Virus record (IMG/VR): IMGVR_UViG_3300045988_154301
Location: 1-37,533 of that record
From: a virus
Direction: 5' to 3' (one strand)
Length of the DNA: 37,533 bases
Below the pieces are notes generated by a model that had not been told where the DNA came from, made no database searches, and saw only the letters and a list, made by a program, of their open reading frames with translations. Below are positions 3,990 through 19,803 of this stretch, one piece after another. Position 1 is the first letter of the stretch, and every line of letters begins with the position of its first letter. Both the position numbers and the translations under genes were made by a program.

Positions 3990-4274
3990 GTGATAACTAA
4001 GGAAACAAGAGCAGAGAGTAATTTAAAAGTGAAAAGAAAAATAAGATATTCACAAATAATAAATGAATTAGAAAAAGTTTATCCTAAAGGTTTATCTGTT
4101 AGGGAATTAATGAATAATTTAAATTTTAATGAAAGAAATTATATAGCACCAAGGTGTACAGAATTAAAAGATAAAGGAAAAATAGAAGAAATAGGTAAAA
4201 CTTACGACTACATTACAAATAGAGAAATTACAGTATATAGATTAGTAAAGGAAGAGGTGAAAAGTAATGTTTGA
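3990..4274 (+). CDS. Winged-helix-like DNA-binding protein
   Basis: GTG start after AGGTGA. The segment GLSVRELMNNL..YIAPRCTELKDKGKIEE resembles a MarR-type winged helix. Confidence 0.5.
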   Translation: MITKETRAESNLKVKRKIRYSQIINELEKVYPKGLSVRELMNNLNFNERNYIAPRCTELKDKGKIEEIGKTYDYITNREITVYRLVKEEVKSNV

Positions 4275-4479
4275 TTATTTAAAGAGTAAAGCTAAATTAC
4301 ACAAAGAAAAGAAAATGTTAATAGAAGAAAATTTAAAACTACAAGAACATATAAAAGCATCAAGAAAATACGAAAAATTTTTAGCAGATGAATTATTTAG
4401 ATATAAAGATGAAGTATATATCTTAAAACAAAAATTAGAAGCTACTACCGTGGAAAGTAAAACAGCTTCTAACATATAA
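4267..4479 (+). CDS. Hypothetical coiled-coil protein
   Basis: A 70-aa ORF with SD GAGGTGA. It overlaps the previous gene by 8 nt. Confidence 0.65.
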   Translation: MFDYLKSKAKLHKEKKMLIEENLKLQEHIKASRKYEKFLADELFRYKDEVYILKQKLEATTVESKTASNI

Positions 4480-4538
4480 ATATCAATTTGAAAAATACTT
4501 ATATTTATATTATATCACATATGTCAAGGGAGGTTGAA

Positions 4539-4988
4539 ATGAAAGATAGTTTTATTTTGTATTTAGAACAAAAAGAAATATTTGAAACTCTATCTGATAA
4601 CGAAGCAGGAAAACTTATAAAAGCTATATTTGAATATGAAAGCACAGGACAATCTCCTAAGCTAAGTAAGACTTTAAATTTAGTTTTTATACCTATAAAA
4701 AATGCATTAGATAGAAATAAAGAAAAATATCAAAAAGTAGTAGAAAGAAATAAAAAAAATATACGTAAAAGATGGAATAAAGAAAATACCAAAAGTACCA
4801 GTGGTAAAAATGGTATACAAAAAAATACCAAAAATACCGATAATGAACATGATAATGATAATGATAATGATAATGAACGTGATAGTGATAGTGTAAATGA
4901 TAATGATAGTGTAAGTGATAGTGATGTGCAAGCAAACAAAGAAAAAGTGTACACATTTTTGAAAGGATTTGGTAATTATGACAGTTAA
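4539..4988 (+). CDS. Conserved phage early protein (replisome-organizer N-terminal / DUF6291-like) with an acidic DN/DS-rich tail
   Basis: The ATG at 4539 follows AGGGAGG. The N-terminus, FILYLEQKEIFETLSDNEAGKLIKAIFEY, is typical of that family. The C-terminus is low complexity. Confidence 0.55.
   Translation: MKDSFILYLEQKEIFETLSDNEAGKLIKAIFEYESTGQSPKLSKTLNLVFIPIKNALDRNKEKYQKVVERNKKNIRKRWNKENTKSTSGKNGIQKNTKNTDNEHDNDNDNDNERDSDSVNDNDSVSDSDVQANKEKVYTFLKGFGNYDS
4839..4925 (+). repeat. In-frame GATAAT/GATAGT hexanucleotide repeat tract
   Basis: GATAAT x4 (4851..4874) is followed by GATAGT/GATAAT units. Together they encode DNDNDNDNERDSDSVNDNDSVSDSD. Confidence 0.8.
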
Positions 4989-11066: not shown

Positions 11067-11507
11067 ATGGAAATTAAAGAAGAATTAGAGAATTATAATA
11101 ATTATTTGGCTGAAATAAAAGCCAAAAAATATAGTATTAAAAAACTTGAATTGGAAGAAGTTACAATTTCTGGAAGTAATTTTAGCATAAATGGAGATAT
11201 AAAACCAAAAGGATATATGAGTTCTAATGTAGAAAAGAAAGTAATAGATAATACTGATAAAATAAATAGATTTAAAAAAGAAATAGAGAAATTACAAGCT
11301 AAAATTGAAATGATAGAAGGATTTATAAATATATTAAATGATGATCATAGAAGAGTTATTGAATTAAGATATAAATATAATAAATCAGATTTGCAAATAT
11401 CTAAAATAATTAATTTAACAAAGAGAGCAGTTAACAAAAGAGCAAATATAGCATTAAAAATATTAGAAAAACAGTATAATAATAAAGTTTACCTAAAAAG
11501 TACCTAA
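11067..11507 (+). CDS. ArpU/RinA-like late-gene transcriptional regulator (sigma region-4-like HTH)
   Basis: The C-terminal segment RRVIELRYKYNKSDLQISKIINLTKRAVNKRANIALKILE resembles sigma region 4. It is the last gene before the packaging module. Confidence 0.65.
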   Translation: MEIKEELENYNNYLAEIKAKKYSIKKLELEEVTISGSNFSINGDIKPKGYMSSNVEKKVIDNTDKINRFKKEIEKLQAKIEMIEGFINILNDDHRRVIELRYKYNKSDLQISKIINLTKRAVNKRANIALKILEKQYNNKVYLKST

Positions 11508-11525
11508 AGTGTTCCTAACAAAAGC

Positions 11526-11555
11526 TTGAAATTAAGTATTTAAGCATGCTATAAT
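11526..11555 (+). promoter_or_regulatory. Promoter P1 in the gene-free island
   Basis: TTGAAA (11526..11531), an 18-nt spacer, an extended -10 TGc and TATAAT (11550..11555). Confidence 0.6.
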
Positions 11556-11561
11556 ATATAA

Positions 11562-11785
11562 TAGCAGAAGGTATCGGATATGCCTTTCGCTGGAAATTAA
11601 CGTTGAGTAAGAATAGACTAGTAACTGACTTACTTTTCAATTCTCTCTTAATTGTCAAAAAAATAAAGACGATTGGTTTTAGACTTGAGAGAATTGCTAT
11701 TTTGAATGCAAACAAGGGAAACCTTAGTTTTTTTATAATCAACCTCTTATATAGCACTATCTATTATGGTAGTGCTATTATTATT
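11562..11785 (+). ncRNA. Candidate structured noncoding RNA (unclassified)
   Basis: It lies downstream of P1. Hairpins: 11574..11592; 11606..11611 with 11629..11634; a 10-bp stem CAATTCTCTC (11638..11647) with GAGAGAATTG (11687..11696); a GAAA-tetraloop hairpin plus T7 at 11714..11734; and the stem ATAGCACTA/TAGTGCTAT at 11751..11778. The overlapping ORFs are not protein-like. Confidence 0.4.
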
Positions 11786-11837
11786 CATACAAATTTCATG
11801 AGGTGTCAAACAATTTTCACAAGATTACATACAACAC

Positions 11838-11866
11838 TTGACAATGTATATCACTAATGTTATAAT
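11838..11866 (+). promoter_or_regulatory. Promoter P2, perfect consensus
   Basis: TTGACA (11838..11843), a 17-nt spacer and TATAAT (11861..11866). Confidence 0.75.
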
Positions 11867-11872
11867 GTAAGT

Positions 11873-12011
11873 ACAATAAGAAAACAATTTATGTAATCTT
11901 ATTGAACCATGACAAACTGGTTCCTTGCCGTTTGTCGCCTTGTAGTAAATAAAATTGTGCTATAATATTATCGAGAGAGTGAGCTTGGAATAATCACTTT
12001 CTCTTTTTTTT
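11873..12011 (+). ncRNA. Candidate sRNA of about 140 nt, a proposed trans-acting antitoxin for the 20-aa toxin
   Basis: It runs from P2 to an intrinsic terminator: GAGAGAGTGA (11973..11982) pairs with TCACTTTCTC (11994..12003), followed by T8. It contains a possible H-type pseudoknot (AACCA/TGGTT and GACAAAC/GTTTGTC). Two blocks, 11944..11957 and 11962..11972, are identical to 12121..12134 and 12143..12153, so they are complementary to the toxin mRNA start region. Confidence 0.5.
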
Positions 12012-12044
12012 ATTCATAATTTATAATAAAATGAGTAAAATAAT

Positions 12045-12071
12045 AATGACCTAACTTGGAATTAGGTCATT
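12045..12071. terminator. 10-bp hairpin, the likely terminator of the minus-strand toxin mRNA (possibly bidirectional)
   Basis: AATGACCTAA (12045..12054) pairs with TTAGGTCATT (12062..12071). On the minus strand it is followed by ATTATTTTAC. Confidence 0.6.
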
Positions 12072-12081
12072 TTGCGAAGAA

Positions 12082-12144
12082 CTATTTTAACAAAACTTTT
12101 GCAAGAATTGTTAAAACAACAGTAAATAAAATTGCTTCAGCCAT
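12082..12144 (-). CDS. Type I toxin candidate, a 20-aa hydrophobic peptide (MAEAILFTVVLTILAKVLLK)
   Basis: It is not in the ORF track. A strong SD, AAAGGTGGTGA, ends 6 nt before the ATG at 12144. It has its own promoter and terminator. Confidence 0.55.
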   Translation of the reverse strand: MAEAILFTVVLTILAKVLLK

Positions 12145-12179
12145 AATATTATCACCACCTTTCTATGATGGCTAATAAT

Positions 12180-12209
12180 ATTATAACACTTGCTAATATA
12201 GCAAGTCAA
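12180..12209 (-). promoter_or_regulatory. Promoter of the toxin gene, with a palindrome in the spacer
   Basis: On the minus strand, TTGACT (12209..12204), an 18-nt spacer and TATAAT (12185..12180). The spacer contains the 8-3-8 palindrome ACTTGCTA-ATA-TAGCAAGT (12188..12206). Confidence 0.65.
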
Positions 12210-12236
12210 CAAAATCAGACAATAAAAAAATACAAT

Positions 12237-12262
12237 GTAGTCCAAGATTGGGCTACTTTTTT
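12237..12262 (+). terminator. Intrinsic terminator just upstream of the late operon
   Basis: GTAGTCC pairs with GGGCTAC (7 bp including one G-U) and is followed by T6. Confidence 0.6.
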
Positions 12263-12307: not shown

Positions 12308-12478
12308 ATGACAAAAGAAGAATATCGAAATTATCTGTGTAAACATTGTATAAGATACAATTGTAAAGAAAATATATGTGAATTAGATAAAGATACATAC
12401 AAAGTATATAAATGTACTGAATATGTATCTATTTTTATGTGCAATAAAAGAAATTGTAGAGAGTGTGGGAGATGTTAA
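12308..12478 (+). CDS. Small Cys-rich protein (56 aa, 10 Cys)
   Basis: It is not in the ORF track. The ATG at 12308 follows AAAAGGTAGTGA. Sequence: MTKEEYRNYLCKHCIRYNCKENICELDKDTYKVYKCTEYVSIFMCNKRNCRECGRC. Its stop overlaps the next start (TAATG). Confidence 0.55.
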   Translation: MTKEEYRNYLCKHCIRYNCKENICELDKDTYKVYKCTEYVSIFMCNKRNCRECGRC

Positions 12479-12873
12479 TGAAATTCGAGATAAACAATAC
12501 GATATGGACGATCGAAAAAGTTGATGAAGCAACAATTAATAATGAAATGAAATCAGATGGAACACTAGGAGTAACAATATTTAAAAATCAAAAAATAATG
12601 TTGCTAAAAGACCAAGCAAATATAATTAAGACTTTAAAACACGAACTAACTCATGTGTGGTTGTATGAGTATGGACATAATCAAAATGACAATAAGACAT
12701 TTACATACGAAGATGTATGCGAAATTGTGGCGAGTTTACATGATTTTATAAGTGAAGTAGTAGAACAATATAAAGAACAAAATCAATCTTATATAGAAAG
12801 ATTAAAGAAAAATCACAAAGATGATTATATAGATGCAATAAGATATGCCGTACAGTCACCAAAAGGAGAATGA
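12478..12873 (+). CDS. HExxH metallopeptidase-like protein (SprT-like)
   Basis: LKHELTHVWLYEYGH carries the zinc motif. The ATG at 12478 is coupled to the upstream stop; the track start at 12463 is a GTG. Confidence 0.6.
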   Translation: MKFEINNTIWTIEKVDEATINNEMKSDGTLGVTIFKNQKIMLLKDQANIIKTLKHELTHVWLYEYGHNQNDNKTFTYEDVCEIVASLHDFISEVVEQYKEQNQSYIERLKKNHKDDYIDAIRYAVQSPKGE

Positions 12874-13158: not shown

Positions 13159-13278
13159 ATGTGGAACATATTTTTAGGAATAATATTAAGTTGTATAGGA
13201 GTAATAGCAATAGCATTTACTCTTTTTATTTTTGTTACAATAATAGATGTAATGATAAAACAATTTAAAAGAAAATAA
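13159..13278 (+). CDS. Small membrane peptide (39 aa)
   Basis: It is not in the ORF track. Sequence: MWNIFLGIILSCIGVIAIAFTLFIFVTIIDVMIKQFKRK. A GAGG lies 9 nt upstream. Confidence 0.4.
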   Translation: MWNIFLGIILSCIGVIAIAFTLFIFVTIIDVMIKQFKRK

Positions 13279-13299: not shown

Positions 13300-13845
13300 A
13301 TGACAGATGCACAAAAAAGATTTTGCGATGAGTATTTAATAGACCTTAATGCAACAAGAGCATATAAGGTTGCTTATCCTAATTGTAAAAAAGATGAAAC
13401 AGCAAGAGCAAATGGAAGTAGACTGCTAACAAAAGCTAACATTCAAATATATGTAGCAGATAAAATTAAAGAACGAGAACAAAGAACAGAAATAACACAG
13501 GATATGGTAATAAAAGAATTAGCCAAAATAGCATTTTTAGATATAAGAAAATTATATACAGAAAATGGACAATTAAAAAATATAGCAGACATAGATAGTG
13601 ATACAGCAGGAGCAATATCACAACTAGAAACTTTAGAAGAGTATGAGGGGTATGGAGATGACAGAGAAAAAATAGGTGATACACAAAAAGTAAAACTATT
13701 AGACAAAACAAAAGCTCTTGAACTGTTAGGAAGGCATTTAGGAATATTTAATGACAAAATAGATTTAAATGTTAAAGAAAAAGAAGAAAAGAAAAATGCT
13801 ATATCAGATATATTAAATCAAATGCAAAGTGCAGATGATGTGTAA
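13300..13845 (+). CDS. terS: Terminase small subunit (Terminase_2 / P27-type)
   Basis: The N-terminus MTDAQKRFCDEYLIDLNATRAYKVAYPNCKKDETARANGSRLL is the classic TerS signature. Confidence 0.85.
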   Translation: MTDAQKRFCDEYLIDLNATRAYKVAYPNCKKDETARANGSRLLTKANIQIYVADKIKEREQRTEITQDMVIKELAKIAFLDIRKLYTENGQLKNIADIDSDTAGAISQLETLEEYEGYGDDREKIGDTQKVKLLDKTKALELLGRHLGIFNDKIDLNVKEKEEKKNAISDILNQMQSADDV

Positions 13846-15197
13846 TGTTAAAATTAAGTCAAAAATATAAAGAGTTCTTAAAAACAAAATGCAAGAGAGA
13901 GTTTTTAGAAGGAACAACTGCAGCAGGAAAAACAACAGTAGGAATATTCAAGTTTATGTGTATGGTTGCTAATTCTGATAAAAAGTATCATATTATTGCA
14001 GGTGATGATGTAGGAACAGTAGAGAAAAATGTAATAAACTCTGAAAATGGTTTACTGGAACAATTTGAAGATATAGCAGAGTATTGGCCAAAAGGAAAAG
14101 ATAAAATAAGATTACCACATATAAGATATGATACAAACAAAGGTGAAAAGATAATATATGTATGTGGTTATGGTGATAAAAAAAGATGGAAAAAAGTCCT
14201 AGGTGGACAAGTTGGCTGTGTATATCTTGATGAAGTAAATTTAGCAGATATGGAGTTTATGAGAGAAGTTACACATAGATGTAAATACATGATGACAACA
14301 TCAAACCCAGATGATCCATCATTAGATATTTATAAAGAATTTATAAATAAAAGTAGACCAATAGCCAAGTATGAAAAAGACTATCCAACAGAATTACTAA
14401 AAGAACTAAAAGAACCACATGTGTTAGGATGGGTACATTGGTATTTTACATTTTATGATAATGCAGCATTAACCAAGGAAGATATACAAGAAAAAATAGA
14501 TGCAACACCAATTGGAACTAAGATGTATAAAAATAAAATACAAGGACTAAGAGGAAAAGCAACAGGACTATGCTTTAATTTACAACCTAAAAACATAATA
14601 ACAGTAGAAGAAGCAAAGAAAATGAAATTCAAACTATTTTCTATTGGTTGTGATACATCATATTCAAAAGAAAGCCACGATAAGGTAACATTAGAGGGTA
14701 TAGGCATAACAGCAGATAATAAATGTGTTTTATTAAAAGAAAAAACATTTAATAATAGAGATAGAACAATACCATTTGCACCATCAGATGTGGTTCAATG
14801 GATTGTTGAATTTATGGAAGAGTTCAAAAATGAATGGGGATTTGCAAGAACTTGTTTTATAGATAATGCAGACCAAGGAACAATAATGGAAGCAAACAAA
14901 GCAAAAAGGCAAAATGCATTAGTATATAATTTTGAAAATGCATGGAAAAAAACAAAAATAATCACTAGAGTTCAACTACAAGAAAGTTGGTTGAATACTG
15001 GTGATTTTTTAATTGTTGAAACTTGCAAAGACTATATAGATGAATGTAATAAATATTCATTTGATGAAGATAATCAGCCAGAAGATGGCAACGACCACTC
15101 AATAAATGGTTGCCAATATGCTTGGTTACCACATAAAAAGAAAATTGGTAATTGGGAAGTAATAAAAAAATTGATTAAAGATGAAAGTGAGGAATAA
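13845..15197 (+). CDS. terL: Terminase large subunit (PBSX/XtmB-like)
   Basis: Walker A-like GTTAAGKTT and Walker B-like VYLDEVN are present, and the C-terminal region has acidic nuclease motifs. It is coupled to terS (TAATG). Confidence 0.85.
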   Translation: MLKLSQKYKEFLKTKCKREFLEGTTAAGKTTVGIFKFMCMVANSDKKYHIIAGDDVGTVEKNVINSENGLLEQFEDIAEYWPKGKDKIRLPHIRYDTNKGEKIIYVCGYGDKKRWKKVLGGQVGCVYLDEVNLADMEFMREVTHRCKYMMTTSNPDDPSLDIYKEFINKSRPIAKYEKDYPTELLKELKEPHVLGWVHWYFTFYDNAALTKEDIQEKIDATPIGTKMYKNKIQGLRGKATGLCFNLQPKNIITVEEAKKMKFKLFSIGCDTSYSKESHDKVTLEGIGITADNKCVLLKEKTFNNRDRTIPFAPSDVVQWIVEFMEEFKNEWGFARTCFIDNADQGTIMEANKAKRQNALVYNFENAWKKTKIITRVQLQESWLNTGDFLIVETCKDYIDECNKYSFDEDNQPEDGNDHSINGCQYAWLPHKKKIGNWEVIKKLIKDESEE

Positions 15198-19729: not shown

Positions 19730-19803
19730 GCAAATTTAGTGTAATGGTAGCACAACAGTCTCCAAAACTGTTAGTAATAGTTCAAATCTATTAATTTGTG
19801 CCA
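19730..19803 (+). tRNA. trnW: Phage-encoded tRNA-Trp (anticodon CCA)
   Basis: It folds by hand into a cloverleaf: acceptor GCAAATT/AATTTGT (G1-U72), D arm GTGT-AATGGTA-GCAC, anticodon arm ACAGT-CTCCAAA-ACTGT, variable loop TAGT, T arm AATAG-TTCAAAT-CTATT, discriminator G and encoded CCA. Total length is 74 nt. Confidence 0.85.

What the first reader, a model, noticed from the sequence alone, without database searches (positions are those of the whole stretch)
11873..12209. A type I toxin-antitoxin candidate whose antitoxin appears to be a trans-encoded sRNA derived from a decayed toxin copy
On the minus strand, a consensus-like promoter, a strong SD (AAAGGTGGTGA) and a 20-codon ORF (MAEAILFTVVLTILAKVLLK, 12144..12082) are followed by a 10-bp terminator hairpin. 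About 170 nt upstream on the plus strand, the consensus-promoter sRNA (11873..12011) contains two blocks, 11944..11957 and 11962..11972. These are identical to the plus strand at 12121..12134 and 12143..12153, so they are perfectly complementary to the toxin mRNA across codons 4-8 and across the SD-spacer-AUG region. On the minus strand the sRNA locus reads like a toxin 5' region with ATG changed to ATA and a 4-nt deletion. This suggests the antitoxin evolved from a duplicated toxin gene. Comparable divergent or limited-complementarity arrangements are known for tisB/istR-1 and zor/orz.
Basis: partly seen in the sequence, partly recalled or inferred. Interest (0 to 1): 0.7.

Follow-up and report, generated by a model that had tools for sequence, protein, structure and literature searches.

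The report
Phage toxin–antitoxin RNA cassette, par-like
A gut-bacterium prophage carries a tiny membrane-peptide gene facing a small RNA gene; the two RNAs can pair at three short sites, and four sequence versions of this cassette in related phages each match only their own partner, so this looks like a real, undescribed RNA-controlled toxin–antitoxin module.

Summary
A near-consensus promoter, SD, 20-codon hydrophobic ORF (12144..12082, -) and terminator face a promoter-to-terminator sRNA (11873..12011, +). The sRNA carries two blocks identical to the plus strand over the ORF's start region. The two genes are convergent, not divergent.

CTTGGAAT sits in the apical loops of both terminators (11984-11991 and 12055-12062).

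Related human-gut phage contigs hold four different cassettes (A-D) at the same site, between conserved flanks. Each has its own peptide (20, 30, 20 and 29 aa). Each sRNA matches only its own toxin, at the start region (duplex -26 to -33 kcal/mol cognate, -7 to -17.5 non-cognate) and at the terminator loops (6-8 nt cognate, 4 nt or fewer non-cognate).

All four mRNAs are predicted to hide their SD in a 5' hairpin. This is the regulatory logic of the enterococcal par (Fst/RNA II) system. However, the peptides lack the Fst PXXXG motif, match no Pfam or NCBIfam model, and the two terminators are separate.

Nothing matches in Rfam, phage records or plasmid records. Expression and toxicity remain untested. 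I read it as a new variant of type I toxin-antitoxin systems. The 'decayed toxin copy' origin is plausible but unproven.

The parts
11838..11866 (+). sRNA promoter: TTGACA, 17-nt spacer, TATAAT, with TG extension
   Evidence: scores it 12/12. It is conserved in all related loci.
11873..12011 (+). Candidate antitoxin sRNA, about 139 nt, with four hairpins
   Evidence: MFE -37.8 kcal/mol, z -5.9, 0/200 shuffles fold as well. No Rfam match.
11874..11904 (+). sRNA 5' hairpin 1, constant across cassette types A-E
   Evidence: Conservation with B-type loci ends at 11910.
11911..12173 (.). Exchangeable cassette: the sRNA 3' two-thirds plus the whole toxin transcription unit. It is replaced by unrelated sequence in B-type loci, between conserved flanks.
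   Evidence: alignments stop at 11910 and resume at 12174.
11944..11957 (+). DR1 in the sRNA, complementary to toxin codons 4-8
   Evidence: 14/14 identity; duplex.
11959..11972 (+). DR2 in the sRNA, complementary to spacer + AUG + GC, with one G-U wobble at the G of the AUG
11973..12011 (+). sRNA intrinsic terminator: 10-bp stem, 11-nt loop, T8
   Evidence: The stem shows compensatory changes between cassette types.
11984..11991 (+). DR3 in the sRNA terminator loop (CUUGGAAU)
12045..12071 (-). Toxin mRNA intrinsic terminator
   Evidence: (I13).
12055..12062 (-). DR3' at the apex of the toxin terminator (AUUCCAAG), complementary to the sRNA terminator loop
   Evidence: Cognate-only match of 8 nt; non-cognate 4 nt or fewer.
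12082..12144 (-). 20-codon ORF MAEAILFTVVLTILAKVLLK (candidate toxin), stop codon included
   Evidence: It is the only intergenic ORF in the window that combines an SD with a hydrophobic small peptide. L093 encodes the same peptide with a different stop codon.
12121..12134 (-). DR1' in the toxin mRNA (codons 4-8)
12140..12153 (-). DR2' in the toxin mRNA (spacer, AUG, first bases of codon 2)
12152..12162 (-). Shine-Dalgarno AAAGGUGGUGA
   Evidence: The TCACCnCCTTT scaffold is conserved in cassettes A, C and D.
12154..12172 (-). Predicted 5' hairpin of the toxin mRNA, pairing GCCAUC with GGUGGU and so sequestering the SD
   Evidence: Analogous hairpins are predicted in cassettes B, C and D.
12180..12209 (-). 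Toxin promoter: TTGACT, 18-nt spacer, TATAAT, with TG extension
   Evidence: scores it 11/12.
12237..12256 (+). Conserved plus-strand terminator marking the right edge of the cargo site, ahead of the late/packaging operon
   Evidence: It is found in 11 viral contigs.

Best explanation
This is a type I toxin-antitoxin-like module carried as a moron in a temperate phage of a low-GC human-gut Firmicute.

A strong constitutive promoter on the minus strand makes a roughly 135-nt mRNA. This mRNA encodes a 20-aa membrane-type peptide with an acidic N-terminus, an 11-residue hydrophobic core and a basic C-terminus. A still stronger convergent promoter makes a roughly 139-nt sRNA that ends about 33 nt before the toxin's terminator. 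The two RNAs therefore do not overlap and act in trans.

Inferred mechanism, in three steps:
1. The nascent toxin mRNA hides its SD in a 5' hairpin.
2. The sRNA docks through a loop-loop contact between the two terminator hairpins (CUUGGAAU with AUUCCAAG).
3. The single-stranded recognition segment just 5' of the sRNA terminator zips onto spacer-AUG-GC (14 bp including one G-U) and codons 4-8 (14 bp). This blocks ribosome loading and may mark the mRNA for decay.

If the prophage or the sRNA supply is lost, the peptide would be made and would damage the membrane, giving prophage maintenance or abortive defence.

What is shown and what is inferred. Shown: the sequence anatomy, the predicted structures, and cognate-specific complementarity at two independent sites in four cassette variants. 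Inferred: transcription, order of events, toxicity and biological role.
For: Anatomy and more-than-chance repeats.

RNA structure. The sRNA is strongly structured (z -5.9). The toxin mRNA has z -3.9 and a 5' hairpin that sequesters the SD; cassettes B-D are predicted to have the same feature.

Four cassettes. Fifteen loci share the sRNA 5' hairpin pattern: 6 viral, 1 genome and 8 metagenome. Besides A, they carry cassettes B, C and D at the same site, encoding MTEFTDFIVAITGLLTIIYTIIVFFSNKLK, MVENIILIVVLIFFIRELKH and MEDVTTLLNAVAYVLCSLAILIKAIKKRY. All four peptides follow the pattern acidic N-terminus, hydrophobic core, basic C-terminus.

Cognate specificity, four measures:
- Local alignment score: 41/33/32/26 on the diagonal against 23 or less off it.
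- Recognition segment against TIR duplex: -31.0/-26.2/-33.2/-26.0 kcal/mol against -7.1 to -17.5; shuffles reaching the observed value 0, 0, 0 and 1 of 1000.
- Terminator-apex complementarity: 8/8/7/6 nt against 4 or fewer; 13, 19, 236 and 179 of 20000 shuffles reached it.
- Full-length cofold ddG: -25.2/-15.1/-31.3/-17.8 against -2.2 to -13.3.

Shared scaffold. Cassettes A, C and D align on a common scaffold, while the recognition blocks, loops and terminator stems change in parallel.

Known precedent. The par logic consists of convergent promoters, DRa/DRb over the initiation site, interaction starting at the terminator loops, and a 5'-SL over the SD (PMC7472228).
Against: - There are no expression, toxicity or binding data.
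- The peptides are too short for the homology tools and match no Pfam or NCBIfam model.
- All variants come from one group of related gut phages. A, C and D share a scaffold, so the four cases are not fully independent.
- In A, B and D part of the loop-complementary segment lies in the predicted upper stem.
- The toxin terminator's T-run is interrupted, so some read-through into the sRNA gene is possible. That would make the pair partly cis-antisense.
- An sRNA-only variant (E, in L082/L096) exists with no toxin within about 12 kb, so the sRNA scaffold may have another role.
- The stable 5' hairpin is unusual for the labile antitoxin that post-segregational killing would require.
Confidence: 0.72

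Rival explanations
1. The two convergent RNAs are a real interacting pair, but the small ORF is not a toxin. It could be a benign phage membrane peptide, for example one involved in superinfection exclusion or lysis timing, with translation tuned by the sRNA. Alternatively the 'mRNA' could be a non-coding sponge or decoy for an sRNA whose main targets lie elsewhere.
For: An sRNA-only variant E exists without any toxin cassette. The sRNA 5' hairpin is constant whatever the cassette. No toxin family is matched.
Against: All four cassettes keep a strong SD, an ATG and an uninterrupted ORF with the same acidic-hydrophobic-basic layout, even where the nucleotide sequences are not alignable. In every cassette the pairing is centred on the AUG and first codons, and the SD is hidden in a 5' hairpin. 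This tight, multilayered repression is typical of toxic products. Size and composition match known type I toxins; the 18-19-aa Ibs peptides are my own recollection, not a tool result.
Confidence: 0.15
2. The pair works mainly as a cis-antisense system. The toxin transcript or the sRNA reads through its weak terminator into the partner gene, producing long perfect duplexes that RNase III cleaves. On this reading the short repeats are remnants of a duplication with little function.
For: The toxin terminator's T-run is interrupted (AUUAUUAUUUU). The hairpin at 12045-12071 could terminate in either direction. Known clostridial and Bacillus type I systems rely on 3' overlap (PMC6563280).
Against: The sRNA terminator is strong, with a 10-bp stem and T8. 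The repeats and the loop matches co-vary with the toxin in four cassettes and sit exactly on the AUG and the terminator apices. A remnant would not be expected to do this. Mismatches at the AUG in A and D are G-U-compatible.
Confidence: 0.08
3. Chance: an AT-rich intergenic region with fortuitous repeats, promoter-like hexamers and a spurious short ORF.
For: The count of promoter-like sites in the region equals the shuffle expectation (18 found against 17.5 expected). ATAATATTAT is a low-complexity palindrome. CTTGGAAT occurring twice in 37.5 kb is not in itself surprising.
Against: The two promoters are the best and the joint second-best hits in the region, at 12/12 and 11/12 with TG. Terminator-like sites number 4 against 0.3 expected. 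Alignment and duplex scores beat 1000 shuffles. The same three-site complementarity recurs with different sequences in four cassettes.
Confidence: 0.03

Closest known systems
par of Enterococcus faecalis pAD1 (Fst toxin mRNA RNA I with antitoxin RNA II) and par-like loci (Fst-Sm/srSm, Lpt/RNA II, SprA1/SprA1AS)
   Same: Both have convergent promoters. Both have two direct DNA repeats transcribed in opposite directions, giving complementarity over the toxin's initiation region. Both have complementary terminator stem-loop apices suited to a kissing start, and a 5' stem-loop that sequesters the SD. Both encode a small hydrophobic peptide and occur in Firmicute mobile elements (PMC7472228).
   Different: None of the four peptides has the PXXXG(C) motif, any proline, or a Pfam/NCBIfam Fst hit. 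Two of the peptides are only 20 aa. The RNAs do not share a bidirectional terminator: there are two separate hairpins with different stems, about 33 nt apart, and only the loops match. The sRNA is about 140 nt with extra 5' hairpins, against about 40 nt for RNA II as given in PMC7472228.
tisB/istR-1, zor/orz, shoB/ohsC, dinQ/agrB of E. coli
   Same: The antitoxin does not overlap the toxin and acts through limited complementarity of roughly 14-20 nt. The toxins are small hydrophobic peptides.
   Different: According to my own knowledge, those pairs are divergently transcribed, occur in Gram-negative chromosomes, and mostly target a standby or 5' UTR site. Here the genes are convergent, the AUG and early codons are targeted directly, and a terminator-loop contact is added.
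Clostridioides difficile prophage type I systems (e.g. CD0977.1-RCd11, CD0956.2-RCd10)
   Same: These are type I modules located on prophages of a low-GC gut Firmicute. A role in stabilising mobile elements has been shown for them (PMC7699646 abstract; PMC6563280).
   Different: The characterised toxins are 50-53 aa. Their antitoxins are long cis-antisense RNAs that overlap the toxin's 3' part, and the proposed mechanism is RNA degradation. There is no sequence similarity.
Ibs/Sib of E. coli
   Same: The toxins are comparably tiny hydrophobic peptides of 18-19 aa (my own knowledge).
   Different: Sib is fully overlapping antisense RNA, and the host clade is Gram-negative.

Membership tests
Type I toxin-antitoxin systems (general) | A small hydrophobic peptide ORF with its own promoter, RBS and terminator | tested here: met
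   The same holds in cassettes B-D.
Type I toxin-antitoxin systems (general) | An adjacent sRNA gene whose transcript is complementary to the toxin mRNA | tested here: met
   Complementarity is cognate-specific in four cassettes.
Type I toxin-antitoxin systems (general) | The peptide is toxic when expressed, and the sRNA prevents its synthesis | not testable with these tools
   This needs induction and rescue experiments.
Type I toxin-antitoxin systems (general) | Both RNAs are actually transcribed | not testable with these tools
   Only promoter and terminator predictions are available, together with their conservation.
par / Fst-RNA II family | The toxin belongs to the Fst/Ldr superfamily: a hydrophobic domain with an essential PXXXG motif (PMC7472228) | tested here: not met
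   None of the four peptides contains a proline. There is no Pfam or NCBIfam hit even at E up to 10.
par / Fst-RNA II family | [quoted passage not shown] | tested here: met
par / Fst-RNA II family | A shared bidirectional intrinsic terminator that gives fully complementary 3' stem-loops | tested here: not met
   There are two separate terminators (11973-12011 and 12071-12045) with unrelated stems. Only 6-8 nt at the apices are complementary.
par / Fst-RNA II family | An intramolecular 5' stem-loop in the toxin mRNA that sequesters the SD | tested here: inconclusive
   It is predicted by MFE folding in all four cassettes. The TSS is inferred, and there is no structure probing.
Divergent trans-type systems (tisB/istR-1, zor/orz) | Toxin and antitoxin are transcribed divergently from adjacent promoters | tested here: not met
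   The promoters at 11838-11866 (+) and 12209-12180 (-) face each other.
Any Rfam sRNA/antitoxin family | A covariance-model match at the gathering score | tested here: not met
   The best hit in the region has E 0.34, far below gathering.

The most novel reading that the evidence does not exclude
The site is a plug-and-play hot spot for type I TA cassettes. A promoter-less cassette, made of the sRNA targeting domain, both terminators with matched loops, and the toxin transcription unit, is swapped by recombination between two fixed convergent promoters and a constant sRNA 5' 'handle'. Related phages thereby carry mutually non-cross-reacting toxin/antitoxin specificities. The toxin-less sRNA variant (E) would serve as an orphan antitoxin or anti-SD RNA in competition between phages. 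The 20-aa peptides would be among the smallest Gram-positive type I toxins.
Probability: 0.25. Interest if true: 0.75.

Novelty: new variant of a known kind. Interest (0 to 1): 0.58.

Why it matters
If confirmed, this adds an undescribed toxin/sRNA family to the type I TA repertoire. It comes from uncultured or poorly studied human-gut Firmicute phages, where such systems are almost invisible to annotation: the ORFs are 20-30 codons and no model exists.

It would also show that the three-site par strategy can operate with non-Fst toxins and without any physical overlap of the genes. That strategy combines a terminator-loop kiss, repeats over the start site, and a self-sequestered SD.

The four natural cassettes form a ready-made specificity-swap series for testing how short dispersed complementarity gives orthogonal RNA control. 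They also bear on whether such modules stabilise prophages or mediate exclusion between phages.

Tried and rejected
Searches that found nothing:
- Rfam at gathering score and at E up to 10: nothing in the region.
- INPHARED phages, near, distant and tblastn with two of the peptides (A and B): no match.
- PLSDB plasmids, distant mode: no match.
- Exact or degenerate DNA patterns for the toxin TIR, the ORF and sRNA hairpin 2 in IMG/VR: no match.
- Exact-protein look-ups for the two flanking genes: not on record.
- The four peptide strings in the paper library: none found.

Tools that could not be applied:
- The search for homologous proteins refuses queries under 40 aa.
- The peptides from other loci cannot be submitted to the representative search or to structure prediction.

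Analyses that did not discriminate:
- Full-length RNAduplex is not discriminating in this AT-rich RNA. I replaced it with segment duplexes and cofold.
- A lax local alignment suggested collinear similarity between sRNA and toxin gene over about 100 nt in B and C. The first 70 nt are no better than shuffles, so I rejected the idea that the whole sRNA is a decayed toxin gene.
- A wobble-bias statistic on that lax alignment was not robust and I dropped it.

Other ideas rejected:
- I looked for a target of the orphan sRNA E within about 12 kb and found none.
- A short plus-strand ORF inside the sRNA (MTNWFLAVCRLVVNKIVL) has no SD and is absent in B, C and E, so I rejected it as coding.
- YUNR U-turn motifs occur in one loop of each pair, but they are too frequent by chance to count as evidence.

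Full report
CONTEXT

The window has 24-32% GC and is a temperate siphovirus-like prophage. It encodes an integrase (118-1284, -), a small protein carrying sigma-70 region 4 (11067-11507), an SprT-like protein (12478-12873), the small terminase (13300-13845) and the large terminase (13845-15197). The large terminase is at most about 52% identical to proteins of Streptococcus, Enterococcus and Clostridium phages. The finding lies in the 800-nt gap between the sigma-like gene and the late/packaging operon.

OBSERVATION

- The minus strand has a TTGACT-18-TATAAT promoter with TG extension at 12209-12180 (11/12).
- It is followed by the SD AAAGGTGGTGA, a 7-nt spacer and the ORF MAEAILFTVVLTILAKVLLK at 12144..12082.
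- The toxin terminator hairpin is at 12071-12045.
- The plus strand has a perfect extended-10 promoter at 11838-11866 (12/12).
- From it runs a roughly 139-nt RNA that ends in a 10-bp hairpin plus T8 at 11973-12011.
- This RNA folds into four hairpins (MFE -37.8 kcal/mol, z = -5.9).
- The two repeats are exact: 11944-11957 equals 12121-12134 (14/14), and 11959-11972 matches 12140-12153 (13/14).
- The one difference places an sRNA U opposite the G of the AUG, which is a G-U pair.
- The alignment score of 41 exceeds all 1000 dinucleotide shuffles, whose maximum was 33.

One correction is needed. The two genes are convergent and, if both terminators work, do not overlap: 12012-12044 lies between them.

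1. CTTGGAAT occurs only twice in the window, at 11984-11991 and 12055-12062. These positions are the apical loop of the sRNA terminator and the apex of the toxin terminator. The two terminator loops are therefore complementary over 8 nt.
2. The 5' end of the toxin mRNA is predicted to pair GCCAUC with GGUGGU, which hides the SD.

COMPARATIVE EVIDENCE

How the relatives were found. Neither the cassette nor its parts match INPHARED phages, PLSDB plasmids or Rfam. Relatives of the flanking genes, however, exist in IMG/VR human-gut contigs. A pattern taken from the sRNA's 5' hairpin retrieved 6 viral loci, 1 genome locus (Clostridium sp. CAG:465) and 8 metagenome loci.

Cassette boundaries. In B-type loci, similarity to the window stops at 11910 and resumes at 12174. 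The left boundary lies after sRNA hairpin 1; the right boundary lies at the toxin -10/TSS.

Cassette types. Four different cassettes lie between these flanks:
- A: the window and L093, with the same 20-aa peptide.
- B: MTEFTDFIVAITGLLTIIYTIIVFFSNKLK.
- C: MVENIILIVVLIFFIRELKH.
- D: MEDVTTLLNAVAYVLCSLAILIKAIKKRY.
- E: a fifth arrangement that has the sRNA but no toxin.

All four peptides have an acidic N-terminus, a hydrophobic core and a basic C-terminus. A and C are both 20 aa and share 7 identical positions.

Cognate-only complementarity. Each sRNA is complementary only to its own toxin mRNA, at two independent places. Values are given in the order A/B/C/D.

| Measure | Cognate (diagonal) | Non-cognate | Shuffles reaching observed |
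|---|---|---|---|
| 45 nt 5' of sRNA terminator against TIR (-15..+33), duplex kcal/mol | -31.0 / -26.2 / -33.2 / -26.0 | -7.1 to -17.5 | 0, 0, 0, 1 of 1000 |
| Terminator apex complementarity, nt | 8 / 8 / 7 / 6 | 4 or fewer | 13, 19, 236, 179 of 20000 |
| Full-length cofold ddG, kcal/mol | -25.2 / -15.1 / -31.3 / -17.8 | -2.2 to -13.3 | not run |

In every cassette the TIR duplex spans the AUG. The cofold calculation charges for opening internal structure. Its predicted intermolecular helix is always the recognition segment on spacer, AUG and early codons.

Shared scaffold. Cassettes A, C and D align on a common scaffold: the sRNA promoter and hairpin 1, the T-runs, the base of the toxin terminator, the SD (TCACCnCCTTT) and the -10 box (TGTTATAAT). 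The recognition blocks, the loops and both terminator stems change in parallel between them. This is covariation at homologous positions.

5' hairpins. All four toxin mRNAs are predicted to sequester their SD in a 5' hairpin. This is especially strong in B, where AUCCUUUUUUCUCU pairs with AGAAGGGAGGAU.

MECHANISM

The best-supported model is a type I TA-like module that is regulated as par is. According to the Fst/Ldr review (PMC7472228):
- par RNA I and RNA II come from convergent promoters;
- they cross the direct repeats DRa and DRb, whose pairing sequesters the initiation site;
- they start their interaction at the loops of the terminator stem-loops;
- they use a 5' stem-loop to hold the SD until the antitoxin has bound.

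The present locus has an analogue of each element. Three steps are inferred rather than shown: the order of events (kiss first, then zipping), the translational block, and any RNase III/Y involvement. Toxicity of the peptide is inferred from its size, composition and layered repression. The biological role is also inferred, by analogy with the C. difficile prophage systems; it could be prophage maintenance by post-segregational killing, or abortive or exclusion defence (PMC7699646, PMC6563280).

MEMBERSHIP

This is not an Fst/par family member:
- None of the four peptides has the essential PXXXG motif, or any proline.
- None matches any Pfam or NCBIfam model.
- The terminators are separate hairpins, not one bidirectional terminator.

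It is also not like the known clostridial systems. Those have toxins of 50-53 aa and long 3'-overlapping antisense RNAs. It therefore works like par without belonging to that family.

ORIGIN CLAIM

The idea that the antitoxin derives from a decayed toxin copy is only weakly testable.
- Similarity between the sRNA and the toxin gene is limited to about 33 nt in A and about 50 nt in C.
- The first 70 nt of every sRNA are no more similar to the toxin gene than shuffles are.
- The third repeat (the terminator loop) lies 3' of DR1-DR2 in the sRNA but 5' of them on the same DNA strand at the toxin. A single tandem duplication does not explain this.
- A short duplication origin for DR1-DR2 remains plausible, as it does for par's DRa/DRb.

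RIVALS

- Chance is excluded by the comparative data.
- A non-toxic membrane peptide, or a sponge role for the 'mRNA', remains possible at about 0.15. The toxin-less variant E shows that the sRNA scaffold can exist alone.
- A read-through, cis-antisense mechanism is possible at about 0.08. It does not explain the co-varying short sites.

CAVEATS

All variants come from one related set of gut phages, and the TSSs are inferred from -10 boxes. In A, B and D part of the loop-complementary segment lies in the predicted upper stem. There are no transcript or phenotype data.

VERDICT

I classify the locus as a new variant of a known kind, and I rate interest as moderate to fairly high because of three features:
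- three-site, cognate-specific covariation;
- very small toxins;
- a cassette polymorphism between fixed convergent promoters.

Noticed in passing
L102 815-1388 and L104 2371-2944 (equivalent to the window gap 11508-12256): In related phages the same intergenic site, just upstream of the conserved terminator GTAGTCC-N4-6-GGGCTAC-T6, carries a ROOL RNA (RF03087, 314 and 310 bits) plus two tRNAs instead of the TA cassette. The site is therefore a cargo hot spot for non-coding genes.
   Followed up: partly
L101 about 4050-4780 (minus strand); L100 1-580 of its reverse complement: A third kind of cargo occupies the same site: an unannotated stretch of about 500 nt that is richer in GC and looks structured. 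It has only a weak manA-like Rfam hit (19.5 bits, E 0.012, below gathering). It may be an undescribed large ncRNA.
   Followed up: partly
window 11526-11790 (+): A second promoter-to-terminator unit lies upstream of the sRNA. Its promoter is TTGAAA-18-TATAAT with TG at 11526-11555, and its terminator is at 11751-11778. The roughly 229-nt RNA folds with z -3.95 and has no Rfam match. Its 3' motif, CAAGGGAAACCTTAGTTTT, is shared with the ends of the ROOL-type and unknown cargos in L100-L104.
   Followed up: partly
L082 950-1095, L096 (reverse strand) and L088: An orphan sRNA (type E) has the same 5' hairpin and terminator style but no toxin cassette. It contains UAUCACCUCCUUUC, which is nearly perfectly complementary to the SD regions of the A- and D-type toxins (GAAAGGUGGUGAUA). 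No target was found within about 12 kb.
   Followed up: partly
window 13159-13278 (+): A 39-aa single-TM peptide ORF (MWNIFLGIILSCIGVIAIAFTLFIFVTIIDVMIKQFKRK) lies immediately upstream of the small terminase gene. A homologue in L075 (MFEIFLGIILGCLGVLAIAFTLFVLIAIIDTTRKQIKKK) lies upstream of the SprT-like gene instead.
   Followed up: no
window 19730-19800 (+): A phage-encoded tRNA (67.7 bits) sits inside the structural-gene region.
   Followed up: no
window 11825-11887 (-) and the L083/L028 equivalent: A hydrophobic ORF runs antisense to the sRNA promoter and 5' end. It is MFSYCTYIITLVIYIVKCCM in the window and extends to 34 aa with an SD-like GAAAGGAATGA in cassette C. It is probably a by-product of the palindromic hairpins, but I did not exclude a real function.
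   Followed up: no
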